Shown: piece by piece, positions 6,508 through 23,612 of the stretch
How positions within the stretch are numbered: position 1 is the stretch's first letter
How the letters are laid out: each line of letters opens with the position of its first letter
Source: Nitrosospira multiformis ATCC 25196
GTDB lineage: Bacteria; Pseudomonadota; Gammaproteobacteria; Burkholderiales; Nitrosomonadaceae
Reading direction: 5' to 3'
Assembly (NCBI RefSeq): GCF_000196355.1
Contig: NC_007614.1
Span: 390,001-422,000, forward strand
Length of the DNA stretch: 32,000 nucleotides
Notes under the pieces: generated by a model
What the model was told of the DNA's origin: nothing
Database searches by the model: none
Seen by the model: only the letters and a program-made list of their open reading frames with translations
Translations under genes and position numbers: made by a program

Positions 6508-7321
6508 CAGGTTTCACGGCAATAATCCCCTGGGGTCCGCTCCCTGAATATTCATTTTCTATCCCGGGCAGGCCGTTTCCTGTTTCCGGAAGGTTCCTTT
6601 TTATATCCTCTGTGATAACGTCATAGAGCGGCCGCAGGTTGGGTCTCATACCTTTTATCGTTCCACTGACACTCATCATTGAGGGAACGCGTATACCATG
6701 ATGCTCGACGGGGGGACCGATGAACTTAAGGTCGAACCCGAGTTTGGCGAAATGCAGTGCAAGGCGCTCTTCAGTCAGAATGAACAAAGTCTCGATTTTA
6801 TGCAGGCGCGCCAGTTCGAAGGTACCTAAATAAAGGCTGATTGGAATGTAAGGAAAGCGCCGAGATTGTGCTACTCCGAAATCTTCATCCGCGATGTCGA
6901 TCGCTTTGCTCGCCTCGCCTTTACGTCTTCGGTAACTGGCAACGACAGCCAGACGTGATACCTCTGCGATATGATGGCGGGGTAACAGCGCGGGATCGAT
7001 AATCGACCGGTCCAATGTATCAGCGCAGGTTATCTCAAAGGGTAAAGGATAATCAGGATCCTTCGGCCGGGGAGAGATTATGCGCGCGCAGCCAATGAAC
7101 TCTTGTGTCTGGACATTGCGTAACAAAAAGTGTAGCGAGTCAATATCATACTCATCGCTTTCTCGCCTATCCCGCTGAAGGGGCTCAAATTTGAGATCCT
7201 CGCAATAAACCTCATGCCGGATCCGGTGAACCTCATCTTTTAATTCGTCCGAAAACGCGGGTACGATTTCAAAGTACCTCTTGAATGCATGACCCAGATC
7301 AAGTATTTCGGTTAGAGACAT
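6500..7321 (-). CDS. N-acyl amino acid synthase-like GNAT of the PEP-CTERM/exosortase-system-associated acyltransferase type (distantly related to FeeM and LuxI)
   Basis: The N-terminus ...FKRYFEIVPAFSDELKDEVHRIRHEVYCEDLKFEP and the central ...HIAEVSRLAVVASYRRR match my recollection of the TIGR03694-type family. The gene lies in a block with prsT and a PEP-CTERM gene. Its 3' end overlaps the rng 3' end by 8 nt in convergent orientation. Confidence 0.78.
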   Translation of the reverse strand: MSLTEILDLGHAFKRYFEIVPAFSDELKDEVHRIRHEVYCEDLKFEPLQRDRRESDEYDIDSLHFLLRNVQTQEFIGCARIISPRPKDPDYPLPFEITCADTLDRSIIDPALLPRHHIAEVSRLAVVASYRRRKGEASKAIDIADEDFGVAQSRRFPYIPISLYLGTFELARLHKIETLFILTEERLALHFAKLGFDLKFIGPPVEHHGIRVPSMMSVSGTIKGMRPNLRPLYDVITEDIKRNLPETGNGLPGIENEYSGSGPQGIIAVKPAT

Positions 7322-7483: not shown

Positions 7484-7501
7484 ATGAGTCTCGTGATAGC
7501 C

Positions 7502-8263: not shown

Positions 8264-8320
8264 GTTCAGTTCCTATCATGAATGCCAACTACTACAGGGA
8301 TTACCGGTCGGGGGATTTTT

Positions 8321-9055
8321 ATGAGTGACACGGGCATTGTGCACCTCGAGAATGTTTCCAAAGATTACATCCTTGGTGAGCAGAAAGTCCAGGCATTGAA
8401 AGACATTACGTTAGATATCGCCTCCGGCGCTTTCCTCGCTATTGCAGGTCCATCCGGCAGTGGCAAGTCAACGCTGCTCAATCTGATTGGTTGTATTGAT
8501 ACGCCCACCGCCGGCAAAGTTTTAATCAACGGTCAGGATATCAGCGGCCGTACTCCGGATGACCTGTCCGGGCTCAGGGCAAGAACTATCGGGTTTGTTT
8601 TTCAGACGTTCAATCTGTTTCCCGTTCTCTCTGCTGAGGAGAACGTCGAGTATCCGTTGCTGCAATTCAGGGAATTGAAGACAGCAGAGCGCCGCATCCG
8701 GGTTGCTGAATATCTCGATATCGTCGGTTTGTCCAGGTTTGCCCGGCATCGGCCGAACCAGCTCAGCGGAGGGCAACGTCAGCGTGTAGCGATTGCACGG
8801 GCACTGGCAACGCATCCGAAAATAGTATTGGCTGACGAGCCTACTGCCAATCTTGATCATGCGACAGGTGAAGGCATCCTGGAGCTGATGAAGAATATCA
8901 ACGACAAATTTGAGACAACCTTTATTTTTTCCACTCATGATTCGCGTGTCATGGCGATCGCGGACAATGTAATCCATATCCAAGATGGTCAGATCGTGCA
9001 ACGGGAAATTCGCAAGGAGAAATCCATGCACGTTATTGAACATAGGGATAGATAG
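8321..9055 (+). CDS. ABC transporter ATP-binding protein, LolD/MacB-type
   Basis: Walker A GPSGSGKST, signature LSGGQRQRVAIARAL, Walker B IVLADEPTANLD and H-loop STHD. I prefer the ATG at 8321 (MSDTGIVHLENVSKDY, preceded by GGGGGA) over the track start at 8282. Confidence 0.9.
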   Translation: MSDTGIVHLENVSKDYILGEQKVQALKDITLDIASGAFLAIAGPSGSGKSTLLNLIGCIDTPTAGKVLINGQDISGRTPDDLSGLRARTIGFVFQTFNLFPVLSAEENVEYPLLQFRELKTAERRIRVAEYLDIVGLSRFARHRPNQLSGGQRQRVAIARALATHPKIVLADEPTANLDHATGEGILELMKNINDKFETTFIFSTHDSRVMAIADNVIHIQDGQIVQREIRKEKSMHVIEHRDR

Positions 9056-9082
9056 ATGTGAAAAAGGTGACTTCCAAAGGTA

Positions 9083-10795
9083 ATGACGAAAGTAGCGCCG
9101 ATGAGTTACGGAATTAGGGGCGTATATCTGATAAGCCTAAAGGCACTGCTTGTTGTAAGGTCGATCAGCTTTGCAGGGGAGGCGCAGGTTCAGCTTCCGG
9201 ATGCTGCAAAACCGGTACCTGTTATCTACGACGCGAATGAGGACCGTACAACACCTGCCGAGCCTTTGATGCTCACTTTGTCTTTAGCGATGGGAACGTC
9301 CCCCGCTCGTCCGGTACGGGAGCCGGATGATAGAGCGGGCGCTGTGGTTTCGCAGGGGGAGAATGTGGAGAGAAGGCTGGGTGAGGAGAAGCCTTTGCTA
9401 TTGTCCGTATCACCTTCTCTTTCTTTTATTTCGGCTCCTGCAGCAAAAGATCATGAGATAAATCTGAGCAGAGAACCTGCCCCTGTCATTGCTGCCGGGA
9501 ACGATGCGGAGAGCGAGTTCACGTCGCGGGAAGCATTATTTGGCGACGATTTGGGTCAAGAGCAAAAGCCATCAAAACCTATGCCTGCCTGGAAGAGGTT
9601 GGTGACTGGGTGGAGGGGTTTTTCCCAGCTGGAAATCGCGGACACTTATACTGACCCCGAGCATTTATCGAAAGCAAAGCTTCGAACGGAGCTATCGCGC
9701 ACGGGACAGTTCAACGAAAACATAAAATGGAAAATAAGCGGTCGCTTCGACTATGACGCAGCTTATGACCTGTCCAGTTTTTATCCACACGCGGTCCGTC
9801 AGGATCAACGCTACCAGTTTTTCGTCCGAGAAAATTATCTTGATGTCTCGGCTGGCGATTTTGATTTCCGTCTCGGTCGTCAGCATGTGATATGGGGCGA
9901 GATGGTGGGACTGTTCTTTGCGGACGTGGTATCCGCGAAGGACTTGCGGGAATTTGTCCTGCCTGCCTTTGACATATTGCGCATTCCCCAATGGGCGGCG
10001 CGCGCGGAATATTCGAAGGGGGATTCCCATGCTGAAGTGGTGTGGATTCCTGTGCCGACTCTTGACGAAATTGGAAAGCCGGGAGCGGATTTCTATCCCG
10101 GTCCCTTGCGCGGAGTAGCTACCTATCTTCCAGAAGATCGCTCCGGGCGGAATATCGCGAACTCCAACTATGGGGTGCGTTTATCGCACCTTGTAAATGG
10201 CTGGGATATTTCGGGTTTCTACTACCACAGCCTGGATTCGTCGCCTACGTTCTATCGCATCGGTGGCCCGCTTGACCCTCCTGTCTTCCAGCCCCGTCAT
10301 GATGAGATTGACCAGGTGGGTGGAACCCTTTCGAAAGACTTCGGCTCAATCGTTTTAAAAGGCGAACTGATTTATACAGATGGACGCAAATTCAACGTCA
10401 CGCGACCCACCGCAATGAATGGGTTGGTCAGGCAGAATACGCTCGACTATGTTATAGGCCTGGATTTCAGTTTGCCTGCCGAAACCCGCTTGAATCTGCA
10501 GTTCTTTCAGCGTGTCTTTTTTACGCATGACCCGGATCTCCCTCTGGACCGGCTTGAGAATGGCGCCAGCATTCTGCTCAATGGCAAGCTCTCCCCCAAG
10601 ATTGAGGCTCAAGCTTTACTGATCCACAGTCTGAATCGTAGCGACTGGATGTTCCGGCCTCGATTATCCTGGAATTTCCAACCGAACTGGCGTTGGGCGG
10701 TTGGAGCAGACGTATTTGGCGGTCCACCTATTGGTCTGTTTGGCCGTTTCGATCATGCCGACCGCGTCTATACCGAATTGCGGTATTCATTCTGA
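9083..10795 (+). CDS. Putative outer-membrane beta-barrel protein, DUF1302-like, with a ~170-aa low-complexity N-terminal region
   Basis: The motif FRLGRQHVIWGEMVGLFFADVV resembles the DUF1302 hallmark (lRlGrQvvsWGE). The C-terminal half alternates aromatic and polar residues, and the protein ends ...YTELRYSF with the terminal Phe typical of BAM substrates. The start and signal peptide are uncertain. Confidence 0.6.
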   Translation: MTKVAPMSYGIRGVYLISLKALLVVRSISFAGEAQVQLPDAAKPVPVIYDANEDRTTPAEPLMLTLSLAMGTSPARPVREPDDRAGAVVSQGENVERRLGEEKPLLLSVSPSLSFISAPAAKDHEINLSREPAPVIAAGNDAESEFTSREALFGDDLGQEQKPSKPMPAWKRLVTGWRGFSQLEIADTYTDPEHLSKAKLRTELSRTGQFNENIKWKISGRFDYDAAYDLSSFYPHAVRQDQRYQFFVRENYLDVSAGDFDFRLGRQHVIWGEMVGLFFADVVSAKDLREFVLPAFDILRIPQWAARAEYSKGDSHAEVVWIPVPTLDEIGKPGADFYPGPLRGVATYLPEDRSGRNIANSNYGVRLSHLVNGWDISGFYYHSLDSSPTFYRIGGPLDPPVFQPRHDEIDQVGGTLSKDFGSIVLKGELIYTDGRKFNVTRPTAMNGLVRQNTLDYVIGLDFSLPAETRLNLQFFQRVFFTHDPDLPLDRLENGASILLNGKLSPKIEAQALLIHSLNRSDWMFRPRLSWNFQPNWRWAVGADVFGGPPIGLFGRFDHADRVYTELRYSF

Positions 10796-10826
10796 TTGAT
10801 TTCAGAAGCAAGTACTTTATATACCT

Positions 10827-12038
10827 TTATATATTCTGTCGTAGCGCATCAACAACGGGGGTGCGCGAGATATGCCTCCCGGGAACGATAGCCGCCGATA
10901 CTGTTGCTGCTATACCGATGGCAAAGGATGCCAGCAAAACGCCGGGGACAATCTGGATGTGGGCTGTATAGCCAAGGTTGGAATTTGGAGGCGGCGGCAT
11001 CGAGATACCGATCGCAGAGATAATAAGCGCGAGGCCAATTCCGAGTCCGAGCCCGAGGCCGCTGCCGATCACTCCCAGTAGGAAGTTTTCCGTGATGATC
11101 AATTGGAATACTTCGTTTCTGCGGTTGCCCAGGGCCATCATTGTGCCGAATTCTCCTGTTCTTTCAAAAGCACTCATGTTGACACTGTTCAGGACCCCGA
11201 GCAGAACCATGATAAGGATAATCAGTTGCAGAAAACCTAGCTGGCGTCCATAAAGTTCTACCGTTTTTTCGTAGAAATCGTTGAGTTCGATCCACGTTTT
11301 GATCTCCAGCCCCAAAGTCTCTAACTGTTCTTTTAGCAGCCCTGCAATACGAAATGTATCGTCCGTTTTTTTCAGTGAGATGACCAGTGCATTAACGCCT
11401 TGCGTGCCCAGCAACTCCTGGGACGCGGCGAGCGGAATTCTTATTGCTCTAGCATCATAATCACTGGAGAAACTCTTGAATACGCCGACGACCTCCAGAT
11501 CAATGGTGTTTAATGCTCCTTCCAGTGTATTTGCCAGCAGGGTTACGTGATCGCCGGGTTTCAGCTTCAATTCCTGGGCGACGCCCACCCCGATAGCGAT
11601 ACCGAACTTATCCGTGTTTTGCAGTTGACGCCCCGAGATGATCGAGACGGAGCTTCCAAGCGCCGCTTCTTTCGCTGGTTCTACACCCTCTCCAATGATG
11701 GGAAGGTCAGCCCGGCCGTTATTGAGCAGGGCCGAGAAATTGAGTCGCGCCATTACGCTATCGATACCCTCGTTATTCATGATACGCCGTTTAATGGCCT
11801 CGTCATCCGTTATCAGATATCTCTCCGGGGCGTGCGCTCCGGCAGCAAAAAAACCTTCCTTGTAGACTTGCAGATGACCGGATCGAGAGTGGATAAGAGC
11901 CTCCGATAAAGTAACGAAAATATCGTTCACCCAGCCGCCAGCAAGAACAAGAGCTACCACGCCGCTCACGATCGCCGCCAGAGTCATTGCGGTGTGTGAT
12001 TTCTGTCGAAAAATATTTCGAAAGGCCAGTCTGAGCAT
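10827..12038 (-). CDS. ABC transporter permease, FtsX/MacB-LolC/E family (paralog 2)
   Basis: N-terminal LAFRNIFRQKSHT followed by TM1, a large periplasmic domain, and a C-terminal FtsX domain (...NMSAFERTGEFGTMMALGNRRNEVFQLIITENFLLGVIGSGLG...). At 403 aa its size is comparable to LolC/LolE. Confidence 0.85.
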   Translation of the reverse strand: MLRLAFRNIFRQKSHTAMTLAAIVSGVVALVLAGGWVNDIFVTLSEALIHSRSGHLQVYKEGFFAAGAHAPERYLITDDEAIKRRIMNNEGIDSVMARLNFSALLNNGRADLPIIGEGVEPAKEAALGSSVSIISGRQLQNTDKFGIAIGVGVAQELKLKPGDHVTLLANTLEGALNTIDLEVVGVFKSFSSDYDARAIRIPLAASQELLGTQGVNALVISLKKTDDTFRIAGLLKEQLETLGLEIKTWIELNDFYEKTVELYGRQLGFLQLIILIMVLLGVLNSVNMSAFERTGEFGTMMALGNRRNEVFQLIITENFLLGVIGSGLGLGLGIGLALIISAIGISMPPPPNSNLGYTAHIQIVPGVLLASFAIGIAATVSAAIVPGRHISRTPVVDALRQNI

Positions 12039-12054
12039 TATTCACTTTTCCGAA

Positions 12055-13284
12055 TTATCTATTGTGACGTAGCGCATCCACTATCTGCATGCGGGATGCC
12101 TTCCAGGCTGGGTATATACTGGCAGTGAGCGTTGCGCCGATCGCAAGCAAAAGGGATTCGAATGCAATATTCCACGTGACAAGTATTTCGCCCGTATAGC
12201 CACGGGTCGTCCCTGGGGGGGGCGGCATCGGGATCCCTATGCTCGATATCATGGCAGCCAGCGCTACCCCTATCGTAACCCCGAGCAGGCCGCCGAAACC
12301 GCCGAGCAGAATGCCTTCGCTTAGGAAGCGTCGGAGAACGTCGATGCGTCTGGCGCCAAGCGCCATATCAGTACCAATTTCCCCGATCCGCTCCATTACC
12401 GACATCGTCATGGCATTCAAAATGGCAAGAAGGATGATGAAGGCGATTATCAGCTTGAGGCCATGGATTTGTTTTGTAAACAAAGCCACGGTCTTATTGT
12501 AGAAATCAGCCAGGACATACCAGGGAACCACCTCGAAATCGCTCTTTTGCAATGAATCGCGTAATCTTTGGAGTACAGTATCGGTCTTCGCTGTGTCATT
12601 CAACAACACTACCCATACGTGAGAACCTTTGACCCGGAGGAGTTGGCGGGCTGTTTCGATCGGCATGCGTAGGGCGATATCGTCGTAAGACTTGTTTACA
12701 GTGGAGAACAATCCCCGGACAGTGACCTCAACCGCATTGACGCCCCTTGATGCGGTACTCGCCAATAGCACAACCTTATCGCCAATGTTTACGTTGAGGT
12801 TGCGGCCAAGACCCACACCTAGAATAATGCCCTTCGGGGCATCTACTGAAAGATTTTCACCCGCAGAAATTTCCACCGAGCCGCTGAGAATGGCCTTTTC
12901 CTCTGGGATGACTCCTTCTCCAACAAATGAAAGAGTTGCGTCTCCGTGACTGATCAGACCGCCAAAGGAGAGGCGGGGGATGATGGTCTTGATTTGAGCT
13001 GGACCGTTTGCCGGTTCCAGTTCAGGAATTGCATCCGGTAAAAGATAAGCGTATGGATCAGCTTTTCCTGCTTCCTGATAGCCCGGTCTGCTGATCTGGA
13101 TATGGCCGAGTTGCGACTGGATGGTGGCTTCCTGCATGCCCCAGAATATCCACTCGATAAAGCCCGCTGCAAGGATCAGGGCGATAATGCCAAACGTAAC
13201 CGCGCCCACAGCGATGGCGCTGCGACGCTTGTGCCGCACCATATTTCGAAATGCAAGCAAAAAGTCGAGCCGAATACGATCCAC
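12055..13284 (-). CDS. ABC transporter permease, FtsX/MacB-LolC/E family (paralog 1)
   Basis: It has the same architecture as the downstream paralog (LAFRNMVRHKRRS...; ...MSVMERIGEIGTDMALGARRIDVLRRFLSEGILLGGFGG...). The GTG start is preceded by AAGGA. It lies 16 nt upstream of the second permease gene. Confidence 0.85.
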   Translation of the reverse strand: MDRIRLDFLLAFRNMVRHKRRSAIAVGAVTFGIIALILAAGFIEWIFWGMQEATIQSQLGHIQISRPGYQEAGKADPYAYLLPDAIPELEPANGPAQIKTIIPRLSFGGLISHGDATLSFVGEGVIPEEKAILSGSVEISAGENLSVDAPKGIILGVGLGRNLNVNIGDKVVLLASTASRGVNAVEVTVRGLFSTVNKSYDDIALRMPIETARQLLRVKGSHVWVVLLNDTAKTDTVLQRLRDSLQKSDFEVVPWYVLADFYNKTVALFTKQIHGLKLIIAFIILLAILNAMTMSVMERIGEIGTDMALGARRIDVLRRFLSEGILLGGFGGLLGVTIGVALAAMISSIGIPMPPPPGTTRGYTGEILVTWNIAFESLLLAIGATLTASIYPAWKASRMQIVDALRHNR

Positions 13285-13630: not shown

Positions 13631-14857
13631 GTGACGAAGCCGCAAATGGAAACCGGAAATAAGCCGATTATTCTTCTAGTGGCTGAAGCAGTCACCCTTG
13701 CGCATTTCGGTCGAATCGTGACGTTGGCGAGAGCCCTTGATTCTAACAAGTATGAAGTGGTTGTCGCCTCGGATCCCCGTTATCTTGATTTAGACGCGCC
13801 ACTGAACTGCACGTTCCATCCTATTCGGTCTATTCCCTCAGCCGAATTTGCGCTAGCCCTTGCTCGGGGAAAACCAGTGTATAGCCTTGAAACCCTCTCC
13901 CGTTATATCGAAGATGATCTGGCGCTGCTTGATCTCGTCAGACCTGCTCTCGTCGTGGGAGATTTCAGACTATCTCTGGCCGTGAGCGCGCCGCTACGGA
14001 AAATTCCATTTGCCACCGTAGTCAACGCCTACTGGAGCCCCTATGCAGTGACCCGCTACCCTGTTCCCGATCTTCCGGTGACCCGCATTCTCGGTATCAC
14101 ACTTGCGCAAAAATTATTCGATATTATCAGACCCGTTGCCTTCGCCCTCCATGCCAGGCCCTTGAACCGGTTGCGTCGACGTTTCGGATTGACCCCTTTG
14201 AAGCAGGATATCAGAAACACATACACGTGGGCGGATTACACTTTATACGCGGACATCCCGGAAGTAGTGCCTGCGCTTAATTTACCTCCCCACCATCGCT
14301 ATCTTGGTCCAATACTCTGGTCCGCCGCCATCTCTCTGCCTGCATGGTGGGACTGCTTACCCGAAGACAAACCGGTGGTATTTCTAAGCCTGGGGAGCTC
14401 GGGCATGGCAGCACTTCTGCCAATGGCTCTTGCCGCCTTATCACAACTTGCGATCACAGTTGTCGTAGCCACTGCAAGAAAAATTACCATAGATGAGGTT
14501 CCAGCGAATGCATATGTTACTGATTACCTGCCATTGGACCGGGTTGCTTCACGCTTGAAAATAGTGATCAGCAACGGCGGCAGCCTGACTACGTATCAGG
14601 CGCTTTCAAGCGGAGTGCCGGTGATCGGCCTGTGTTCGAACCTGGATCAACTGCTGAATATGAATGCAGTGCAGCAGTTGGGGGCCGCTATTACCTTGCA
14701 TTGCGCTCGGATATCCGTCACTGACCTTGTGATGGCTGTAACCGCAATGCTGGATAATCCATCGTATGGACGAGCAGCAATCAAGATAAGCCAGATCTTG
14801 GCAGAATCGGATGCTAAACAGCGTTTTCGGGAATTTGTGGTGCAGGTACTTCATTAA
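13631..14857 (+). CDS. GT1-family (GT-B, UDP-glycosyltransferase / MGT-like) glycosyltransferase
   Basis: The C-terminal sugar-donor signature IVISNGGSLTTYQALSSGVPVIGLCSNLDQ fits the UDPGT pattern ([HNQ]-x-G...P...D-Q). The N-terminus LLVAEAVTLAHFGRIVTLARAL is typical of MGT/UGT enzymes acting on lipophilic acceptors. The start could be the GTG at 13631 or the ATG at 13646. Confidence 0.75.
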   Translation: MTKPQMETGNKPIILLVAEAVTLAHFGRIVTLARALDSNKYEVVVASDPRYLDLDAPLNCTFHPIRSIPSAEFALALARGKPVYSLETLSRYIEDDLALLDLVRPALVVGDFRLSLAVSAPLRKIPFATVVNAYWSPYAVTRYPVPDLPVTRILGITLAQKLFDIIRPVAFALHARPLNRLRRRFGLTPLKQDIRNTYTWADYTLYADIPEVVPALNLPPHHRYLGPILWSAAISLPAWWDCLPEDKPVVFLSLGSSGMAALLPMALAALSQLAITVVVATARKITIDEVPANAYVTDYLPLDRVASRLKIVISNGGSLTTYQALSSGVPVIGLCSNLDQLLNMNAVQQLGAAITLHCARISVTDLVMAVTAMLDNPSYGRAAIKISQILAESDAKQRFREFVVQVLH

Positions 14858-15869: not shown

Positions 15870-16709
15870 TCAGGTGCGACGACGGCCCGTGAAGGCAAAA
15901 CCAAGCAGACCGATACCCATCAGAGCTAAAATGCCGGGCTCCGGCACTTCTCCGTGAGTAAAACCTTGTGATCCATCGGTTTGGATTACAAAACTCGATG
16001 CAGTGTCAGCCCCGGTGGCAACTCCGTCAAATGCTGCCGGCCGCGTATAGGATGGCGCACTCTGGCCGGGGAACTGAAGCGAGGCTTGAAACTGAGTGCC
16101 TGCCAACGCCGGATTCACATACGTGTTATTAGTGAAGGTGACCGTTCCGAACAGAAAACCGCCGCCCGTGCCGAGTACGGCCGGCCCGGGAATCGCACCG
16201 GTTGCAGAGAAGGTGCTGAAACCGCTATCCCATGTTCCACTCAGTATGTTCACCCCGTCGAGAAAGCCCGTCCCGGTGGACTGGTTCGCATCAGGACTGG
16301 AATCAAGGAAAATCCGCCATGATCCGCTGTTCGTGGTGATATCGATGCTGGAGCACCCATCGTTCGCGCAAGTCGCGGTCTGTGTAAGCGTCTGAAAGGT
16401 GGTTACTTCGTACGTTCCATTTTGGGAGCCAGGAGCCGCCACAAATAGATTATTCGTCGGGGAAGTGGTGTTGATGACACCTGCAAAGGCTTGATACGTC
16501 AAGGTGAAGGTATCGCTATCACCTTGCATGTTGGCACCGGTCAGGTCAAACCCCTGAACCCAGCCGCCACCATTTGAATGCCAGTCGAAGCCTGTAAAAT
16601 TTTGCAGTACTCCATCTGCGCTGAATGTGTCCAGGGTTGCGGAATATCCAATGGCGGGACCACCCAGCAATACTGCAGCCATTGATAAATTGATGAGCTT
16701 TTTATTCAC
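15870..16709 (-). CDS. PEP-CTERM-anchored secreted protein (Thr/Gly/Ser/Asn-rich; possibly related to flocculation-type PepA proteins)
   Basis: N-terminal signal peptide (MNKKLINLSMAAVLLGGPAIGYSA). The C-terminus has the VPEP motif, a hydrophobic helix and a basic tail (VPEPGILALMGIGLLGFAFTGRRRT), which is the textbook PEP-CTERM sorting signal. The GTG start is preceded by GGGGAGAG. Confidence 0.9.
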   Translation of the reverse strand: MNKKLINLSMAAVLLGGPAIGYSATLDTFSADGVLQNFTGFDWHSNGGGWVQGFDLTGANMQGDSDTFTLTYQAFAGVINTTSPTNNLFVAAPGSQNGTYEVTTFQTLTQTATCANDGCSSIDITTNSGSWRIFLDSSPDANQSTGTGFLDGVNILSGTWDSGFSTFSATGAIPGPAVLGTGGGFLFGTVTFTNNTYVNPALAGTQFQASLQFPGQSAPSYTRPAAFDGVATGADTASSFVIQTDGSQGFTHGEVPEPGILALMGIGLLGFAFTGRRRT

Positions 16710-16766
16710 GATTCTCTCCCCATAGCAATAACGATAAAAGAAGCTGTTTGTTTCAGGTTATACCCA

Positions 16767-17377: not shown

Positions 17378-19432
17378 TTAAGCTCCTGCCCTCAGGCGCC
17401 AAAGCATCTGCTCCAGCTCGAGCCGGATAGACCGCGAAGCGGGTCTTTTGCCAGCCCCGATGCGCCCCATGAAAACGGCTCTGGTCGCGACTTCTTCTCC
17501 CAGAATATGACCAAGCCGTCGGGTCAGTGAGGTGGCGAGTGTAATGCATTGTTTTGTCTTCGAAAAGGGAATACTTTCACGACTATAACGTGCAAAAACC
17601 AGAGGAGTTATTTCCGGCTGCAGCTGCAGGCCAAGTTTAGTTGCTGTAAGCCAGAAGCGCTGCATAACGCGTCCTGCGCTCACGTAGTCATCGATGGATC
17701 GAGGCGCGTGAGGCGCCAGGATAACGAAATGCCCGCCACAGGCCATGGCGGGGATCAAATCCATCTGGAGACGCGGTGCCCAGGTTCCCGCCAAAAAAGT
17801 GTTAAAAAATTCGACACGATCCCAGCTTCCCATGATCCAATGCATTAACCGGGCTGTAAATGGATCAACTCCGAGTGCCTGGTCAGGTACTTTATCTGCG
17901 CTATAGCGGGAGTTCCATTGTATGATGGCGCGGTGCACCTGATAGGCTTCAGGCATAATCAGACGCAATTTTGCATTGTCGAACAGGAACCGGGCCATTT
18001 CCAGACGCCTGGAAAAACCCTCCAGCCACAAGATGTCGTACTGGGGTTTCACTGCAGCCTCTAGCGCACTCTTTTCTCTCCCGGTTAAAGGCCGCGTACT
18101 CATGGGGCGGCGTTGAACGCTGCGATAGCGTATATAAGGAATAAGCGGATCGGGCTTAAGATGCGGGTCACTCCCGAAATGGATATCGAAGGTTGGCTTC
18201 GTATCGGAACAATCGGGACGCCGCTGGATACTTGTTTTTAGGCCATGGCCCGTAGCGGCAATAGATATGGTTTCCAGCAATGCGCCGATTGAAATTTGAC
18301 TAGGACGTCCATCCAGGTCATAGACGCAGTGATCACGGGTGTCGAAACCGTGTATTGTCAGGGAATTGTCCCCGACGATCTGGAACCGCCAAGGCTGGGT
18401 ATTGTCTCCGCTCGGCGCCCACCTGGCAAGATCGAGGATTTGCTCGATTAATGTATATGACTTGAGCTCGGGTGGCCTTTTACTTTCGTCCTCACAGCCT
18501 GTCGATTCAGAGGGAATGATAGTACCCGTGGAAGAATAGGGCTCCGGATCTCCGAAGAGCTTGTTAGTATTTTTTTTGCTCAGGCGACGCCTTGCAATTG
18601 CGAGACTGAACTGCTGGAGAGGATTGCTGTTCCCGCCCGGACGCCAGGTACGGATCAGTTTATTGCGGTAGGCGTCGAAATGAACTCCATGTGGAGCGGC
18701 CAAAACCGTACCGCGATTCAGCAGGATCTTCAGAGCTTCAGTAGCTGCAATACCCGCGCAGAGTTGGCAACCCATTATCGTTGAGGGACCGCGGCGTTCC
18801 TTGAGATTGATGCTGGAGGGATCCAGCAGGTAACGGGCATGGAGACCAGTGGGCGCGAGTCCTATCAAGAAACGGAGGGCCTTTTCCACCTCGGGTAGAT
18901 CACCCCACTGAAAATACTCTTCGAAGGTCATTTTGCCAGGCAGGAAATTCAATAATGCCGATCCCATGCCTAAAGGAGCGGCCGTGATGGCGGGAATACC
19001 TCGCTCCTCACAGGCCGAAAACGTTACTGCGCGAGCTGAAAAGGCGAAAAAGTCGAGACCATCGATATACAGATCAACGTCCTCGAAAAATTCCGGCAAA
19101 TTATCCGGATTGACGCCCCGAGGAAAGATTTTGATATTCAGTTCCGGATTGATATCTCGTGCCATTGCGGCTAAAACCTCGCTCTTTGGCCGATTGAGGC
19201 TCGAGACCGTGGCGCCTACCTGGCGGTTGAAATTGACCAGATCAAAAACATCAAAATCCGCAATATGAAATGCGCCAATCCCCAGCCGAGCCAAGGTCAG
19301 CAGATGAATACCCCCTACGCCGCCCAGACCGGCAATTGCAATGCGTTTGTACCGTAGAATTTCCTGTTCGACAGGTGTTACCCACCCAATATTGCGGGAG
19401 GTGGCCTCACGATATGAGAAATCCTGAACCAT
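17378..19432 (-). CDS. Fusion protein: N-terminal ThiF/MoeB/HesA-type E1-like adenylyltransferase domain and C-terminal nitroreductase-fold (Acg/MoeY-like tandem) domain
   Basis: N-terminal Rossmann motif IAIAGLGGVGG, the FNRQ arginine-finger region and a DGLD motif. The C-terminal half begins LDLARWAPSGDNTQPWRF, the hallmark of Acg-type nitroreductase-like proteins. The overall ThiF+nitroreductase layout recalls mycobacterial MoeY (Rv1355c), from memory. Confidence 0.85.
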   Translation of the reverse strand: MVQDFSYREATSRNIGWVTPVEQEILRYKRIAIAGLGGVGGIHLLTLARLGIGAFHIADFDVFDLVNFNRQVGATVSSLNRPKSEVLAAMARDINPELNIKIFPRGVNPDNLPEFFEDVDLYIDGLDFFAFSARAVTFSACEERGIPAITAAPLGMGSALLNFLPGKMTFEEYFQWGDLPEVEKALRFLIGLAPTGLHARYLLDPSSINLKERRGPSTIMGCQLCAGIAATEALKILLNRGTVLAAPHGVHFDAYRNKLIRTWRPGGNSNPLQQFSLAIARRRLSKKNTNKLFGDPEPYSSTGTIIPSESTGCEDESKRPPELKSYTLIEQILDLARWAPSGDNTQPWRFQIVGDNSLTIHGFDTRDHCVYDLDGRPSQISIGALLETISIAATGHGLKTSIQRRPDCSDTKPTFDIHFGSDPHLKPDPLIPYIRYRSVQRRPMSTRPLTGREKSALEAAVKPQYDILWLEGFSRRLEMARFLFDNAKLRLIMPEAYQVHRAIIQWNSRYSADKVPDQALGVDPFTARLMHWIMGSWDRVEFFNTFLAGTWAPRLQMDLIPAMACGGHFVILAPHAPRSIDDYVSAGRVMQRFWLTATKLGLQLQPEITPLVFARYSRESIPFSKTKQCITLATSLTRRLGHILGEEVATRAVFMGRIGAGKRPASRSIRLELEQMLWRLRAGA

Positions 19433-19504
19433 TACCCGGGCCGATCAGTAGGAATAGGGGAGCAATTTGAGGTGAGCTATATATGATGTGAATGATAGCA
19501 TCAA

Positions 19505-19521
19505 TGCCAAATGCTTTGGCA
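19505..19521. promoter_or_regulatory. Perfect inverted repeat TGCCAAA-TGC-TTTGGCA in the 162-nt spacer between the FeeM-like and ThiF-nitroreductase genes
   Basis: Read directly: 7-bp arms and a 3-nt spacer, set in an AT-rich spacer. Confidence 0.5.
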
Positions 19522-19594
19522 GGGAAGACTGATGGAAAAATATCAGCTTCAAGGGCAGAAAAATTGCAGAAGTTAAAAAGCATGTACGTGAATT

Positions 19595-20413
19595 TCACGC
19601 AGAGGGTACCCAGACACCCCCGGTTTTCAGTCGCTCAGTAATGTTACCTTCATCCTCTGCGGAAAAAAAATAGGGGTAAAAAGATCTTTCGTTACCGTGT
19701 TGCTCCATCAATCCGCCGAATTTCCCAATTTGTTCGGCCATATATTCAAGTTTCACCCTAAGCAGCACCGCAGGTGCGTCAACACGGGTGCAAACTCGCT
19801 CTTCGGCAATCTGCCTGCATCCCAGCATTCTTTTATAGAAACCAGCGTGACGAGGGTTTACTTCTACCACCCAGTCAGTAAAACCATGGATATTTGCCGC
19901 ATAGATATAGCAAACATGAATCAGTGAAGCAAAAACCCGGGGAGGTACATTATCATCAATTGCAAGTCTGGAAGGTTCACACAGCCTTCGTCCCTGCGCC
20001 CGCAACTCATTCAGTTCGTCACCAAAATTCTCATCCGCGGGCAACGATGAATTGCCATCCACACACAAGGTCATGGTGCCTACTGTCTGGTTTGCGGTTT
20101 CAGCGATCAATGTAATCCTGTTAGGCTCGTTGATGACCGGCATATCAACAGAATAACCTCTCCAGGAATACCTTTTTTTTATGAGCAAGCTCGCGGCTTC
20201 ACGCTGATCTTCTGAATTAGCCATTCGAATATGAAAGCGCTGTTGATCGATAGAATGAGTGCGAACAGACTTGGAATCATGTTTCCCAATACAAATATCC
20301 TGCCACCGATAAGGAGACTCGAATGAAATTATCGCTTCGCTATCTTCACTATCATGAGGCAGAAAGTTATATCTGTGGGTAATGAGAGCATAAAATGGTT
20401 GAAAGATATGCAT
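19595..20413 (-). CDS. FeeM-like long-chain N-acyl amino acid synthase (GNAT fold), second and divergent copy in the island
   Basis: ...IRMANSEDQREAASLLIKKRYSWRGYS...TLIAE..NQTVGTMTLCVD....LPADENF..EL..LR..GRRLCEPSRLAID...VEVNPRHAGFYKRMLG resembles FeeM/NasY-type enzymes. The start is moved to the ATG at 20413 (MHIFQ..., SD GAGGA 8 nt upstream) because the track start (TTG at 20455) lies inside the sigma-54 promoter. Confidence 0.72.
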   Translation of the reverse strand: MHIFQPFYALITHRYNFLPHDSEDSEAIISFESPYRWQDICIGKHDSKSVRTHSIDQQRFHIRMANSEDQREAASLLIKKRYSWRGYSVDMPVINEPNRITLIAETANQTVGTMTLCVDGNSSLPADENFGDELNELRAQGRRLCEPSRLAIDDNVPPRVFASLIHVCYIYAANIHGFTDWVVEVNPRHAGFYKRMLGCRQIAEERVCTRVDAPAVLLRVKLEYMAEQIGKFGGLMEQHGNERSFYPYFFSAEDEGNITERLKTGGVWVPSA

Positions 20414-20454: not shown

Positions 20455-20470
20455 AGCAATATCCATGCCA
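20455..20470 (-). promoter_or_regulatory. Sigma-54 (-24/-12) promoter TGGCAT-GGATA-TTGCT driving the FeeM-like / ThiF-nitroreductase operon
   Basis: On the - strand it reads TGGCATGGATATTGCT. Its half-sites are identical to those of the promoter at 16767-16782. The predicted TSS near 20444 gives a ~31-nt leader to the ATG at 20413. Confidence 0.75.
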
Positions 20471-20656: not shown

Positions 20657-23446
20657 CTACTGTATCCGCTCAAGAAGAGCTCTGGCTTCATCTATGCCTG
20701 AAAAGGTTTTTCCAGTAGCCAGAATTTGCTCAAGCTCTTTACGCGCCTGGCTTTTATTGCCAGATTTAACCAGTGCGGATGCAAAATGGTAGCGGATTTC
20801 CCCTGCTTGAGGCGCCAAAGAAGCGGCTTTCTGTAAAAGCGGTAGAGCTCGCGCGATATTTTCCTGCTCCAGCAGTACCCAACCCAGCGTATCCAGTACT
20901 GCCGGGTTTTCCGTAGCAAGCTGGTATGCCTTTTCCGCGTATTCCAAGGCCCTGGGGTCCTTTTGACGCTGATAAGCGGTAGCCAGGTTATTAAGCGCCG
21001 GAGCAAATTTCGGTTGTTCTTTCAGGACAGTTTGATATTGCTCCACTGCAGCAGCCAGTTTTCCCTCTGTGAGAAACGTATCCGCGAGGTACATTCGAGC
21101 AGATAAATCATTCGGGTGTTTTTTCAGCCATTCGATCAAGCGAAGGTCTGCCTCCTTATCTTTTCCAGCCTGCCTGAGCGATGCGTGCAGCTTGATCAAC
21201 AAGGGCGAGGTTTTATTAACCGCGAATGCCTGTTCATAGGCGCTTGCGGCAAGCGCGGGTTTTTTCTGTTTCAGCAACAGATCGCCCTCTGCTATATAAC
21301 CTGCGGGTGACCCTTTATGCTGCTTCTGAACTTGGCGCGCCATCGCGATTGCTTTCTCATAATTACCCTGTTCTGCTTCAATGTCGATCTGCGCCAATTG
21401 CGCAGCCAGATAATCGGGTTTTATAGCCAGCGATTTTTTCAGCGCATCTGATGCGGCGGAGAGGTTCCGCATTGCCATATGAATGGAGGCGATGCGGAAT
21501 TGAACAAGCGGGGATTCCGGTTGTACGACAGCGAGCCGGGCGTAGCTCTCCAAGGCACTCGATTTGTCATTGTTAGCTAGTTGAGCCTGTGCCAGTAAAT
21601 CCAGCACAGCGGAGTCCTTGGAATGTGTCCCCTCCAGTTTCTTGGCGAGAGCCAGGGCCTTCTGCTTTTCGCCCAAACGCAGATAATGTGTTCCAAGCAG
21701 GATGGCCGGCTGAAGGACATCCGGATTTGCTTGCATTGCACGCTCCAGCCACTCGGTAGCCTTCTGGTTCTGTCCCTGGTTGACAGCAAGACCCGCCAGC
21801 GCGACCATGGCCTGGATATTCTTCTTGTCCTTTTCCAGAATTGCTTCAAAGCGTTTTCTTGCGGCATCCGGTTTTTTATCCTGAATGTCGAGTCGTGCGA
21901 GATTTGCTATAGTCGGAAAATAGTTTGGTTGAATAGCAAGCGCTTTCTCAAAGCTCGCTCTTGCATTCGCTATATCGTTCTTGCCAAGATACACGCCGCC
22001 TTTCAGGTTTTGAATGAGGGGATTATCAGGATTCTCCTTCTCCAATGCCTTTACCGCGGCGAGCGCCTTGTCGAATTCTTTGAGGCGTAAATGGGTCATG
22101 ACCAGCAACACTCCTGCCCGCGGCGATTTGGGGTCGAGTTTTGTCGCTGTTTCCAGTTCGGAGATGGCCCGGGCGTTTTCCCCCTGCCCCAACCTGCTCA
22201 TGCTTAAAGCGGTATGAAGCATCGCACTTCTCGGTGCGATATCGCTGGCCATTTCAAAGTATTCCGTGGCTTTCGCAAAATCCTTGGCTTGCATGTAAGC
22301 TTCCCCAGCCAAGGCGAATAACTGGGGATCCTCTTTCACATTTTTGAGCGGTGGGGTCAGGATGTCGATCGCGCGTTTCGTCTCGCCATTTTTTAACAGC
22401 GCGGAAGCAAGCAGCTTGCGCGCGTAGATGTTTCCGGGATCTTTCTCCAGATAATGTTTCAGGTGTTGTTCCGCCTGGGGCATGGATCCGAGAGCAAACT
22501 GGACTGCGCCCGCGAGCAACACGCTGGGCATGTGATCTGGCGACTTGCTGAGTACCTGCTGGAGCGATTCCAGCGCGGCAGCGGGCTTTTGCTGGCTGAA
22601 ATCGAGCAAAGCCTGGGTATAAAACACCATCAAGCTGGGACTGATCTTCCGTGCCGCGTCGATATCTGCCTTTGCCGCCTCGAACTTGCCCGTTCCAATT
22701 TCGATGAATGCTTTGTTGATATAGGCAATGGCTGCGTTCGGTTTCAGCTTTACCACCTGGTCATACGCCGCCAGAGCTTCCCCGGATTTGCCTTGCATCC
22801 GCAGAAGGTCGCCCCTGAACAACCAGGCCTCGACATTTTGTGGGCTCCGGGAAACCGCCTGCTCCGAGAAATGGGTTGCGCCTTCCACATCCCTTTGAAC
22901 CAGGGAATATTTCGCCAAGCCGATCAGTGCGTCGGCAGAATCGGGATTGTGTCCGAGCGCTTGCTCGAACAGTGCCTTTGCTTCCGCGGTCTTGCCCAAT
23001 CCGAGCTGTGCATTCCCCCGGAGCGTAAGTATCTGCGCCGACTTTGTTTTGTCGGCCAGTTCTTTCGTTTCATCCAGGATTTGTTGATAGGCGCCTAGCC
23101 TGAGCAGGGCTTGTCCGAGTTCAGGCAGCACCTTGCCCGCATCCATTCCCAAGCTCAACGCCTTGCGAAGCTCCTTCTCCGCGGACTGAAAATCCCCAGT
23201 CTTGTTGTATATTGCGCCAAGCAGATATCGCGCTTCCGAATTATCCGGGTTCTGCTGCAAGGCATTTTTTAGCTGGATGATGGCTGACTTGTGATCCCCG
23301 CTTTCTTCGTAGCGCTTCGCATCCGCCATCAGTTTCACCGGATCCACCGCTTTGTTACAGCCTTGCATGCTGCTCACGGTGAGGGCGGCAGCGATTGCAA
23401 GCGTCAGCCCAGTCTTTTTTAAAACAGTCTTTCTAAAAGCGCGCAT
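20657..23446 (-). CDS. prsT: PEP-CTERM system TPR-repeat lipoprotein PrsT
   Basis: About 929 aa of tandem TPR repeats behind a lipoprotein signal (LTLAIAAALTVSSMQGC). The size and architecture match the PrsT family (TIGR02917 as I recall). I prefer the ATG at 23446 (MRAFRKTVLKK, SD GGAGAAGGGA) over the track start at 23488. Confidence 0.85.
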   Translation of the reverse strand: MRAFRKTVLKKTGLTLAIAAALTVSSMQGCNKAVDPVKLMADAKRYEESGDHKSAIIQLKNALQQNPDNSEARYLLGAIYNKTGDFQSAEKELRKALSLGMDAGKVLPELGQALLRLGAYQQILDETKELADKTKSAQILTLRGNAQLGLGKTAEAKALFEQALGHNPDSADALIGLAKYSLVQRDVEGATHFSEQAVSRSPQNVEAWLFRGDLLRMQGKSGEALAAYDQVVKLKPNAAIAYINKAFIEIGTGKFEAAKADIDAARKISPSLMVFYTQALLDFSQQKPAAALESLQQVLSKSPDHMPSVLLAGAVQFALGSMPQAEQHLKHYLEKDPGNIYARKLLASALLKNGETKRAIDILTPPLKNVKEDPQLFALAGEAYMQAKDFAKATEYFEMASDIAPRSAMLHTALSMSRLGQGENARAISELETATKLDPKSPRAGVLLVMTHLRLKEFDKALAAVKALEKENPDNPLIQNLKGGVYLGKNDIANARASFEKALAIQPNYFPTIANLARLDIQDKKPDAARKRFEAILEKDKKNIQAMVALAGLAVNQGQNQKATEWLERAMQANPDVLQPAILLGTHYLRLGEKQKALALAKKLEGTHSKDSAVLDLLAQAQLANNDKSSALESYARLAVVQPESPLVQFRIASIHMAMRNLSAASDALKKSLAIKPDYLAAQLAQIDIEAEQGNYEKAIAMARQVQKQHKGSPAGYIAEGDLLLKQKKPALAASAYEQAFAVNKTSPLLIKLHASLRQAGKDKEADLRLIEWLKKHPNDLSARMYLADTFLTEGKLAAAVEQYQTVLKEQPKFAPALNNLATAYQRQKDPRALEYAEKAYQLATENPAVLDTLGWVLLEQENIARALPLLQKAASLAPQAGEIRYHFASALVKSGNKSQARKELEQILATGKTFSGIDEARALLERIQ

Positions 23447-23612
23447 GTAAATTCCCTTCTCCGAATCAGCGACCAGGTCCACCTTCAAACTTATGCATTC
23501 CTGCAGCCGGCACTCAACTTTACACCTCTGCGCAATCCCCGTGAAACGGGGACCATCCGGTTTTCAGGAGGACAATCGATACCGAGGCTTTCCATTGGTT
23601 TTGCCACTACTA

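What the first reader, a model, noticed from the sequence alone, without database searches (positions are those of the whole stretch)
17378..19432. E1-like (ThiF) adenylyltransferase fused to an Acg-type nitroreductase fold, co-transcribed with an acyl-amino-acid synthase and lacking the usual partners
The sequence shows a ThiF/MoeB nucleotide-binding half (GLGGVGG, FNRQ, DGLD) joined by a ~45-aa Ser/Thr/Pro/Glu linker to a ~345-aa nitroreductase-like half that opens with APSGDNTQPWRF. E1-like enzymes activate a carboxylate by adenylation. Examples are the C-termini of ThiS/MoaD, the MccA heptapeptide and the pantocin precursor. I could not find a ThiS/MoaD-like ORF ending in Gly-Gly, a YcaO or a recognisable precursor peptide nearby. 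The gene sits 162 nt downstream of the FeeM-like gene behind a shared sigma-54 promoter. My inference is that the free carboxylate of an N-acyl amino acid is the adenylation substrate. That would allow esterification, amidation or cyclisation, with the flavoenzyme-like half doing a redox step. The same domain order exists in mycobacterial MoeY, whose function is, as far as I know, also unresolved.
Basis: partly seen in the sequence, partly recalled or inferred. Interest (0 to 1): 0.75.

Follow-up and report, generated by a model that had tools for sequence, protein, structure and literature searches.

The report
Known oxazolone synthetase (OxzB) in Nitrosospira

Summary
Window 17378-19432 (-) is one 684-aa ORF with a ThiF domain, a disordered linker of about 34 aa, and an Acg-type nitroreductase domain. 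It lies 162 nt downstream of a FeeM-type N-acyl amino acid synthase, which has an exact sigma-54 site upstream.

It is not new. The protein is 45% identical over its full length to Pseudoalteromonas rubra OxzB and 48% identical to Colwellia chukchiensis OxzB. OxzB is the "oxazolone synthetase" of de Rond, Asay and Moore. [quoted passage not shown]

The mycobacterial MoeY (Rv1355c) was characterised in 2025 as TrzS, an N-acyl tryptazolone synthase.

Across 82 related loci, a synthase gene lies within 10 kb in 65. No ThiS/MoaD-like gene or conserved peptide gene occurs.

Some features are less described. The pathway sits inside an XrtA/PEP-CTERM locus with PrsT, PepA, a glycosyltransferase and a Lol-like exporter. 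The adjacent synthase is FeeM-type rather than OxzA-type. The 162-nt spacer is unusually conserved.

Verdict: an uncharacterised member of a known enzyme family, of low to moderate interest.

The parts
17378..19432 (-). oxzB-like gene: ThiF-nitroreductase (FDO) fusion, 684 aa
   Evidence: ORF. Domains. 45% identity to P. rubra OxzB and 48% to C. chukchiensis OxzB. AF2 model pLDDT 89.
18569..19432 (-). ThiF-like cyclase/adenylation domain (aa 1-288)
   Evidence: Pfam ThiF E 2e-39. It aligns in register with E. coli ThiF, with G35xGxxG, D59, R70, K83 and D127 matching. All of these are invariant or nearly invariant in 81 homologues. The best match by sequence among solved structures is TcdA (E 3e-15).
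18467..18568 (-). Disordered interdomain linker (aa 289-322)
   Evidence: pLDDT below 50. Length and sequence vary among homologues.
17381..18466 (-). Acg-type nitroreductase / flavin-dependent oxidase domain (aa 323-684)
   Evidence: NCBIfam Acg family E 7e-34. Foldseek match to 2ymv, target TM 0.74. Invariant S341, N344, Q346, W348, R437, R441, R490, H568, Q591, Q605, R657, R667, S668 and R670.
19433..19594 (-). 162-nt spacer between the synthase gene and oxzB; a conserved non-coding element of unknown role
   Evidence: 90% identical to N. multiformis Nl18, against 79% and 74% for the flanking genes and 67% upstream. It contains several short palindromes. No Rfam match. RNA folding z-score is -1.2.
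19595..20413 (-). FeeM-type N-acyl amino acid synthase, presumed to supply the OxzB substrate
   Evidence: Pfam FeeM E 1e-53. It matches the N-terminal part of NCBIfam PRK14852, a 989-position model whose later part the ThiF-nitroreductase protein matches. It is not detectably similar by BLASTP to C. chukchiensis OxzA.
20455..20470 (-). Sigma-54 (-24/-12) promoter motif TGGCATGGATATTGCT
   Evidence: Exact consensus match. It is conserved at the same place in L003, L004, L005 and L013.
20657..23488 (-). PrsT, the XrtA/PEP-CTERM system TPR lipoprotein
   Evidence: TIGR02917, 952 bits against a cut-off of 312. Found within 10 kb of oxzB in about 29 of 82 loci.
15870..16709 (-). PepA-like flocculation-associated PEP-CTERM protein, with its own sigma-54 site at 16767-16782
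   Evidence: NF033554, 166 bits against a cut-off of 80. Sigma-54 site.
13631..14857 (+). MGT/UDPGT-family glycosyltransferase, a recurrent neighbour of oxzB
   Evidence: Pfam and NCBIfam matches. Found within 10 kb in 31 of 82 loci, often directly downstream. It forms a 24-locus cluster in de novo clustering.
7502..13284 (.). Lol-like export module: LolA_like (7502-8263 -), ABC ATPase (8282-9055 +), DUF1302 (9083-10795 +) and two FtsX/MacB permeases (10827-12038 -, 12055-13284 -)
   Evidence: Co-located with oxzB in 16-20 of 82 loci.
6500..7321 (-). Second N-acyl amino acid synthase, TIGR03694 type; this is the true OxzA homologue
   Evidence: TIGR03694, 261 bits against a cut-off of 112. 33% identity, E 9e-43, to C. 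chukchiensis OxzA, which itself scores 272 bits on TIGR03694.

Best explanation
The gene encodes an OxzB-type oxazolone synthetase. [quoted passage not shown] The likely source is the FeeM-type enzyme encoded 162 nt upstream, and possibly also the TIGR03694-type enzyme at 6500-7321. The ThiF half adenylates the free carboxylate with ATP. The amide oxygen attacks the acyl-adenylate and closes a saturated oxazol-5(4H)-one ring. The FMN-containing Acg-type half then removes the alpha and beta hydrogens using O2, giving a conjugated 2-alkyl-4-arylidene-oxazol-5-one (a tyrazolone, phenazolone or tryptazolone type lipid). No ubiquitin-like carrier or peptide substrate is involved.

Shown here: domain architecture, orthology to characterised enzymes, conserved ATP-site residues and gene context. 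Inferred from orthologues: the chemistry. Unknown: the amino acid, the acyl chain and the physiological role. Expression is probably under RpoN (sigma-54) as part of the XrtA/PEP-CTERM regulon.
For: - Full-length similarity to experimentally validated OxzB proteins: P. rubra (P0256, WP_010386455) 45% identity, 622 bits; C. chukchiensis 48% identity, 674 bits.
- Published biochemistry. OxzB needs ATP and converts N-decanoyl-tyrosine to nonyl-tyrazolone. oxzAB pairs from alpha-, beta- and gammaproteobacteria make oxazolones in E. coli. For TrzS, the D217A variant abolishes cyclisation, R540A and Q651A impair desaturation, and the reaction needs FMN and O2.
- The ATP-site residues align in register with E. 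coli ThiF and are conserved in 81 homologues: G35xGxxG, R70, K83 and D127 are invariant, and D59 is nearly invariant (90% or more).
- The closest solved structure by sequence is TcdA, the ThiF-family cyclodehydratase of an N-carbamoyl amino acid.
- The AF2 model plus Foldseek confirm ThiF and Acg folds.
[quoted passage not shown] It is divergent in 10, downstream in 4 and elsewhere within 10 kb in 12.
- The NCBIfam model PRK14852 (989 positions) is matched at positions 75-233 by the window's FeeM-type synthase and at 314-779 by the ThiF-nitroreductase protein. This implies a synthase-ThiF-nitroreductase triple fusion in some genomes.
- There is no Gly-Gly carrier gene and no conserved small ORF.
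Against: - No assay was done on this protein. 45-48% identity leaves room for a different amino acid or a different fate of the product.
- The adjacent synthase is FeeM-type (Pfam PF21926). BLASTP detects no similarity to the characterised C. chukchiensis OxzA.
- I could not confirm that any experimentally tested oxzAB pair, such as that of Undibacterium pigrum, uses a FeeM-type partner.
- The FMN-site residues of TrzS (R540, Q651) could not be mapped onto this protein, because no TrzS sequence was available.
- In producers of N-acyl dehydrotyrosines, no oxazolones have been observed. The oxazolone may therefore be an intermediate rather than the end product.
Confidence: 0.85

Rival explanations
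1. The first steps are the same, but the oxazolone is not the end product. It is a reactive azlactone that is opened by water to give an N-acyl dehydroamino acid, or by a hydroxyl or amine nucleophile. Further steps could include glycosylation by the neighbouring MGT-type glycosyltransferase, export by the Lol-like module, and attachment to exopolysaccharide or to PEP-CTERM proteins.
For: - The glycosyltransferase lies within 10 kb in 31 of 82 loci and is often directly downstream. The Lol-like module occurs in 16-20 loci.
- PEP-CTERM system markers occur in at least 38 of 55 full-length loci.
- The characterised C. chukchiensis oxzAB pair lies beside a PEP-CTERM protein gene, PrsT-like genes and the exosortase EpsH gene.
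- Oxazolones hydrolyse within hours at pH 8.
- Producers of dehydrotyrosine lipids carry synthase, ThiF and nitroreductase genes, yet no oxazolone has been seen in them.
- Disrupting an exosortase-associated N-acyl amino acid synthase abolishes a polysaccharide band in Methylomonas LW13.
Against: [quoted passage not shown]
- No glycosylated or conjugated oxazolone has been reported in the papers read.
- 17 of 55 full-length loci have no PEP-CTERM marker nearby, and P. rubra-like locus L054 is among them.
- Gene proximity is not evidence of a chemical link.
Confidence: 0.3
2. A classical ThiF/MoeB/MoeY-type E1 that adenylates a ThiS/MoaD-like sulfur carrier for thiamine or molybdopterin synthesis, as many database names suggest.
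For: Database names given to homologues include 'molybdopterin/thiamine biosynthesis adenylyltransferase', 'ThiS adenylyltransferase' and 'MoeY'. The ThiF fold and ATP site are intact.
Against: - No Gly-Gly-terminated carrier gene in the window, and no conserved small ORF in 82 loci.
- No rhodanese domain.
- Scores on the ThiF and MoeB equivalog models are far below their cut-offs, for example 80 against 275.
- The single CxxC (C222/C225) is not kept in the characterised OxzB proteins.
- MoeY itself is now known to be TrzS.
Confidence: 0.02
3. A RiPP or TOMM-like enzyme in which the E1-like domain binds or activates a ribosomal peptide and the nitroreductase domain acts like a SagB/McbC dehydrogenase.
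For: E1-like and nitroreductase-fold proteins cooperate in azole-peptide biosynthesis (established knowledge). MccB and PaaA appear among the fold matches.
Against: - No YcaO among the ORFs scanned.
- No recurrent precursor-like ORF in 82 loci.
- Orthologues act on small molecules.
Confidence: 0.02

Closest known systems
OxzB oxazolone synthetase of Pseudoalteromonas rubra and Colwellia chukchiensis (de Rond, Asay and Moore; bioRxiv 10.1101/2020.06.11.147165)
   Same: Same ThiF-linker-nitroreductase architecture and similar length (650-664 aa against 684 aa). Identity is 45-48% over the full length. The ATP-site residues are conserved. [quoted passage not shown] In C. chukchiensis, PEP-CTERM, PrsT and exosortase genes also lie next door.
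   Different: The adjacent synthase here is FeeM-type (PF21926), not OxzA/TIGR03694-type. The OxzA-type gene sits 11 kb away. A sigma-54 promoter and a conserved 162-nt spacer replace the tight oxzAB junction. The product and its specificity are unknown.
TrzS (Rv1355c, formerly MoeY) with TrzA (Rv1356c) of mycobacteria (PMC12856293)
   Same: A fused ThiF-like cyclase plus flavin-dependent oxidase, with an upstream acyltransferase. It carries out ATP-dependent cyclisation followed by O2-dependent desaturation of an N-acyl amino acid.
   Different: It is a distinct subfamily. The window protein scores 175 bits on the Rv1355c-family model, whose cut-off is 476. In the published sequence network, TrzS and OxzB fall in different subclusters. 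TrzS uses tryptophan and short acyl chains and comes from actinobacteria.
TyzA/TyzB/TyzC of M. tuberculosis (PMC10404671) and the split ThiF plus nitroreductase pairs of N-acyl dehydrotyrosine producers (PMC12479983)
   Same: The same three activities: acyltransferase, ThiF-like cyclase and flavin-dependent oxidase. About 23 of the 82 related loci found here are likewise split into two genes.
   Different: The enzymes are separate polypeptides, and the order of cyclisation and desaturation is not obligate. In the window the two are fused.
TcdA (tRNA threonylcarbamoyladenosine dehydratase)
   Same: It is the closest solved structure by sequence (E 3e-15). It is a ThiF-family enzyme that uses ATP to cyclodehydrate an N-carbamoyl amino acid carboxylate.
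   Different: It acts on tRNA, has no flavin domain and has no partner synthase.

Membership tests
OxzB oxazolone synthetase (ThiF-FDO fusion) | N-terminal ThiF domain fused to a C-terminal Acg-type nitroreductase (FDO) domain | tested here: met
   Pfam and NCBIfam matches. AF2 model with two domains. Foldseek matches to ThiF and Acg.
OxzB oxazolone synthetase (ThiF-FDO fusion) | Full-length homology to a biochemically characterised OxzB | tested here: met
   45% identity, 622 bits, to P. rubra OxzB. 48% identity, 674 bits, to C. chukchiensis OxzB. Both alignments run end to end.
OxzB oxazolone synthetase (ThiF-FDO fusion) | Intact ATP-binding and adenylation residues, including the Asp equivalent to TrzS D217 / ThiF D127 | tested here: met
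   G35xGxxG, D59, R70, K83 and D127 align in register with E. coli ThiF. They are invariant or nearly invariant in 81 homologues.
OxzB oxazolone synthetase (ThiF-FDO fusion) | Intact FMN site in the FDO domain (TrzS R540 and Q651 equivalents) | tested here: inconclusive
   Many invariant Arg, Gln and Ser residues are present: R437, R441, R490, Q591, Q605, R657, R667, S668 and R670. The Acg fold is confirmed. No TrzS sequence or ligand-bound model was available to map the exact residues.
OxzB oxazolone synthetase (ThiF-FDO fusion) | N-acyltransferase gene (oxzA) adjacent, typically upstream on the same strand | tested here: met
   A synthase gene lies 162 nt upstream on the same strand. It is FeeM-type rather than OxzA/TIGR03694-type. 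An OxzA-type gene is present at 6500-7321.
OxzB oxazolone synthetase (ThiF-FDO fusion) | ATP- and O2-dependent conversion of an N-acyl amino acid into an unsaturated oxazolone | not testable with these tools
   This needs expression and LC-MS or UV assays.
ThiF/MoeB sulfur-carrier-activating E1 | Cognate ubiquitin-like carrier (ThiS/MoaD) ending in Gly-Gly encoded nearby | tested here: not met
   No such ORF in the window. No recurrent small ORF or Gly-Gly family in 82 loci.
ThiF/MoeB sulfur-carrier-activating E1 | Passes the ThiF or MoeB equivalog models; zinc-binding CxxC pairs or a rhodanese domain | tested here: not met
   80 bits against a cut-off of 275 on TIGR02356, and 72 against 449 on the MoeB model. 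There is only one CxxC (C222/C225), and it is not conserved in characterised OxzB proteins. No rhodanese domain.
TrzS / Rv1355c family | Score above the NCBIfam PRK07877 cut-off | tested here: not met
   175 bits against a cut-off of 476. The protein is a homologue in a different subfamily.
TOMM/azole-peptide machinery (E1-like + YcaO + SagB dehydrogenase) | YcaO cyclodehydratase and a precursor peptide gene in the cluster | tested here: not met
   No YcaO match among the ORFs scanned. No conserved short ORF.
XrtA/PEP-CTERM system accessory genes | Co-location with PrsT, PEP-CTERM proteins, PrsK or exosortase genes, and an RpoN-type promoter | tested here: met
   PrsT and PepA flank the gene pair. 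Exact sigma-54 sites precede both the synthase gene and pepA. Markers occur in at least 38 of 55 full-length loci. EpsH lies next to the characterised C. chukchiensis oxzAB pair. The RpoN dependence of PEP-CTERM genes is described in PMC9850573.

The most novel reading that the evidence does not exclude
Oxazolone biosynthesis is a working arm of the XrtA/PEP-CTERM exosortase system and not a free-standing secondary-metabolite pair. In this reading it is switched on by PrsK/PrsR and RpoN together with the PEP-CTERM proteins. Its electrophilic azlactone lipid, or a glycosylated or hydrolysed derivative, is exported by the co-located Lol-like module. It then contributes to floc or matrix assembly, in the boldest version by acylating exopolysaccharide or exosortase substrates. 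If true, this would give a chemical function to the long-unexplained 'exosortase-associated acyltransferase' family TIGR03694. The characterised C. chukchiensis OxzA belongs to that family.
Probability: 0.25. Interest if true: 0.6.

Novelty: new member of a known kind. Interest (0 to 1): 0.25.

Why it matters
For annotation: thousands of proteins now labelled 'ThiF family adenylyltransferase', 'nitroreductase family protein', 'MoeY' or 'thiamine biosynthesis protein' could be renamed oxazolone synthetase (OxzB-like). Their partner TIGR03694 'exosortase-associated acyltransferases' are OxzA-type N-acyl amino acid synthases.

For biology: the role of bacterial oxazolones is unknown, and so is the role of N-acyl amino acid synthases in exosortase loci. 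This locus joins the two questions. It shows an RpoN-type promoter, PrsT and PepA neighbours, a recurrent glycosyltransferase and a Lol-like exporter. The same pattern holds in many Beta- and Gammaproteobacteria, including an ammonia oxidiser whose aggregation matters in soils and wastewater.

Tried and rejected
1. Craig, Cherry and Brady 2011 (N-acyl amino acid synthases linked to PEP-CTERM) could not be read because it is not held. Haft 2006 does not mention ThiF or nitroreductase.
2. I tried to identify the Undibacterium pigrum OxzB, the tested betaproteobacterial enzyme, to learn whether a FeeM-type partner has been validated. It was not named among the hits.
3. The TrzS residues R540 and Q651 could not be mapped, because no TrzS sequence was available.
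4. An Rfam scan of the window found nothing. RNA folding of the conserved 162-nt spacer is no better than shuffled sequence (z -1.18), so a structured RNA is not supported. The sigma-54-like TGGCAT in the spacer has the wrong spacing (read).
5. Clustering of 883 small ORFs around 82 oxzB loci found no family outside near-identical Janthinobacterium genomes. Seven ORFs end in Gly-Gly, and none recurs.
6. The 63-aa ORF 19407-19598, which spans the spacer, was considered as a carrier or precursor. It was rejected because it does not end in Gly-Gly and has no homologue in the other loci.
7. The sulfur-carrier E1 and TOMM readings were rejected (see the membership tests).
8. My first script for synthase adjacency timed out. 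My first sigma-54 regular expression had an index error. Both were rerun correctly.
Full report
**Observation.** Window 17378-19432 (- strand) is a single 684-aa ORF.
- Pfam finds ThiF at residues 13-265 (E 2e-39) and Nitroreductase (E 7e-12).
- NCBIfam finds the Acg-family FMN oxidoreductase at 332-606 (E 7e-34) and the Rv1355c family (E 2e-51).
- An AlphaFold2 model built on 81 homologues is confident (pLDDT 89.2, pTM 0.87). It shows two folded domains joined by a disordered stretch at 289-322.
- Foldseek returns E. coli ThiF (target TM about 0.8) and M. smegmatis Acg 2ymv (target TM 0.74).
- The upstream gene 19595-20413 (-) is a Pfam FeeM N-acyl amino acid synthase (E 1e-53). The gap between the two genes is exactly 162 nt.
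- An exact sigma-54 consensus, TGGCAT-N5-TTGCT, lies at 20455-20470 (-). A second exact site at 16767-16782 (-) precedes the next gene downstream.

The source is a Nitrosospira; the best hit is 94% identical to a N. multiformis protein.

**What it is.** A literature search showed that this domain fusion is already characterised.
[quoted passage not shown] They named it OxzB.
- OxzA is an N-acyltransferase encoded immediately upstream. Together, OxzA and OxzB make 2-alkyl-4-arylidene-oxazol-5-ones, which the authors named tyrazolones and phenazolones.
- oxzAB pairs from P. rubra, Rheinheimera, Colwellia chukchiensis, Skermanella and Undibacterium gave these products in E. coli.
- Purified P. 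rubra OxzB converted N-decanoyl-tyrosine into nonyl-tyrazolone, and only when ATP was present (bioRxiv 10.1101/2020.06.11.147165).
- In mycobacteria, the split TyzACB system makes N-acyl tyrazolones (PMC10404671).
- Also in mycobacteria, the fused TrzS makes N-acyl tryptazolones. It binds FMN. ATP-dependent cyclisation comes first, followed by O2-dependent desaturation. The D217A variant abolishes the cyclase activity, and R540A and Q651A impair the oxidase activity (PMC12856293).
- Producers of N-acyl dehydrotyrosines (stieleriacines, thalassotalic acids and kyonggic acids) carry the same trio of synthase, ThiF and nitroreductase genes (PMC7293339, PMC12479983).

**Membership tested here.**
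- I recovered the P. rubra protein (P0256, WP_010386455, locus tag PRUB_a0533) and the C. chukchiensis protein (P0142) from the protein collection.
- The window protein aligns end to end with both: 45% identity (622 bits) and 48% identity (674 bits).
- The ThiF half aligns in register with E. coli ThiF. G35-x-G-x-x-G, D59, R70, K83 and D127 coincide with the ThiF ATP-site residues. They are invariant or nearly invariant in 81 homologues.
- The best match by sequence among solved structures is TcdA. TcdA is the ThiF-family enzyme that cyclodehydrates an N-carbamoyl amino acid, which is chemically the nearest precedent.
- The FDO half keeps a dense set of invariant Arg, Gln, Ser and His residues. 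I could not map the two mutated TrzS residues onto it, so I list the FMN site as inconclusive.
- The protein is not a TrzS-family member: it scores 175 bits against a cut-off of 476.
- It fails the ThiF and MoeB equivalog models by a wide margin.

- No ORF of 40 aa or more ending in Gly-Gly exists in the window, apart from one embedded in another gene.
- I clustered 883 small ORFs from 82 related loci spanning Alpha-, Beta- and Gammaproteobacteria, Planctomycetota, Omnitrophota and Myxococcota. No family recurred beyond near-identical genomes.
- No YcaO was seen among the ORFs scanned.
[quoted passage not shown] It lies directly upstream on the same strand in 39 loci, divergent in 10, downstream in 4 and elsewhere within 10 kb in 12.
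- NCBIfam model PRK14852 (989 positions) is matched by the synthase at positions 75-233 and by the ThiF-nitroreductase protein at 314-779. This implies natural triple fusions.
- The ThiF and nitroreductase halves are fused in about 59 loci and are separate genes in about 23, even among close relatives.

**What differs from the published description.**
1. *The adjacent synthase is a true FeeM-family protein.* BLASTP detects no similarity between it and the characterised C. chukchiensis OxzA (E 0.26).
   - The OxzA-type gene of the window is at 6500-7321, 11 kb away. It scores 261 bits on TIGR03694 and is 33% identical (E 9e-43) to C. chukchiensis OxzA.
   - C. chukchiensis OxzA is itself a TIGR03694 "PEP-CTERM/exosortase system-associated acyltransferase".
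   - FeeM-type partners occur in the betaproteobacterial loci. TIGR03694-type partners predominate in the gammaproteobacterial loci.
2. *The gene pair is embedded in an XrtA/PEP-CTERM locus.*
   - PrsT (952 bits) lies just upstream and a PepA-like PEP-CTERM protein lies downstream.
   - At least 38 of 55 full-length related loci carry a PEP-CTERM system marker within 10 kb.
   - The experimentally characterised C. chukchiensis oxzAB pair sits beside a PEP-CTERM protein gene, two PrsT-like genes and the exosortase EpsH gene.
   - The sigma-54 site before the synthase gene is conserved in the nearest relatives. Other exact sites precede pepA-like genes. This is consistent with the known RpoN dependence of PEP-CTERM genes (PMC9850573).
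3. *Two other gene sets recur near oxzB.* One is an MGT-family glycosyltransferase, found in 31 of 82 loci and often directly downstream. The other is a Lol-like module of LolA_like, an ABC ATPase, two FtsX permeases and DUF1302, found in 16-20 loci. De Rond et al. mention glycosyltransferase neighbours only in passing.
4. *No paper in the held library contains both "oxazolone" and "exosortase" in a related sense*.

**Mechanism and confidence.**
- Most likely (0.85): an N-acyl, probably aromatic, amino acid is adenylated on its carboxylate by the ThiF half. It cyclises to a saturated oxazolone and is then desaturated by the FMN half using O2.
- The architecture, orthology, ATP-site conservation and gene context are shown here. 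The chemistry is inferred from orthologues. The substrate identity and the biological role are unknown.
- The main open alternative is not exclusive of this. The oxazolone may be a reactive intermediate that is hydrolysed, glycosylated, exported or conjugated within the exosortase system. Genetic evidence that an exosortase-associated synthase is needed for a polysaccharide band in Methylomonas fits that idea but does not involve OxzB directly.

**Verdict.** That chemistry was published in 2020/2021 and extended to MoeY in 2025. The locus is an uncharacterised member of a known family. Its modest residual interest lies in the regulatory and genomic coupling to the PEP-CTERM system.

Noticed in passing
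window 19433-19594 (- strand): The 162-nt spacer between the FeeM-type synthase gene and oxzB is 90% identical to N. multiformis Nl18. The flanking coding sequences are only 79% and 74% identical, and the region upstream of the synthase gene is 67% identical. The spacer holds several short palindromes (GCCAAAGCATTTGGC, CTGAT...ATCAG, TGATG...CATCA) and a weak terminator-like hairpin at the FeeM stop codon. It has no Rfam match, and its folding energy is unremarkable. It may be an operator or an internal promoter.
   Followed up: partly
window 6500-7321 (- strand): [quoted passage not shown] It, rather than the gene next to oxzB, is the homologue of the characterised OxzA. The locus therefore has two unrelated-looking synthases that might feed one OxzB.
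   Followed up: partly
window 7502-13284: This is a Lol-like lipid or lipoprotein export set: LolA_like, a LolD/MacB-like ATPase, a DUF1302 outer-membrane protein and two LolC/E-like FtsX permeases. It travels with oxzB in 16-20 of 82 loci. Its cargo is unknown.
   Followed up: partly
window 13631-14857 (+) and 14913-15725 (+): An MGT/UDPGT-family glycosyltransferase recurs next to oxzB in many phyla, including Planctomycetales and Sandaracinus loci. The neighbouring 270-aa protein has a 2-oxoacid-dehydrogenase-type (CAT-like) acyltransferase domain. In the 82 related loci scanned, that protein matched only the closest Nitrosospira locus, L003.
   Followed up: partly
window 16767-16782 (- strand); loci L002, L003, L042, L052, L055: Exact sigma-54 consensus sites lie just upstream of PepA-like PEP-CTERM protein genes in the window and in several related loci. 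This fits an RpoN/PrsKR regulon.
   Followed up: partly
loci L009-L012, L015, L018, L021, L031, L048, L052, L053, L068, L080, L082 and others: In about 23 of 82 loci the ThiF and nitroreductase halves are separate adjacent genes of about 290 aa and about 360 aa. This includes relatives 57-64% identical to the fused window protein, so fusion or fission has happened repeatedly. NCBIfam PRK08223 (296 aa, named 'hypothetical protein') is the stand-alone ThiF form.
   Followed up: partly
locus L075 (uncultured Planctomycetales), 4168-19956: Seven ORFs matching my N-acyl amino acid synthase profile surround one oxzB, which is followed by an ABC ATPase, an FtsX permease and a LolA-like gene. The arrangement recalls the four-synthase stieleriacine cluster of Stieleria maiorica.
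   Followed up: no
loci L009-L012 and L080 (Janthinobacterium): No N-acyl amino acid synthase gene lies within 10 kb of the split ThiF and nitroreductase genes. An EDSAP-1 family PEP-CTERM protein gene lies directly downstream. The source of the substrate there is unclear.
   Followed up: no
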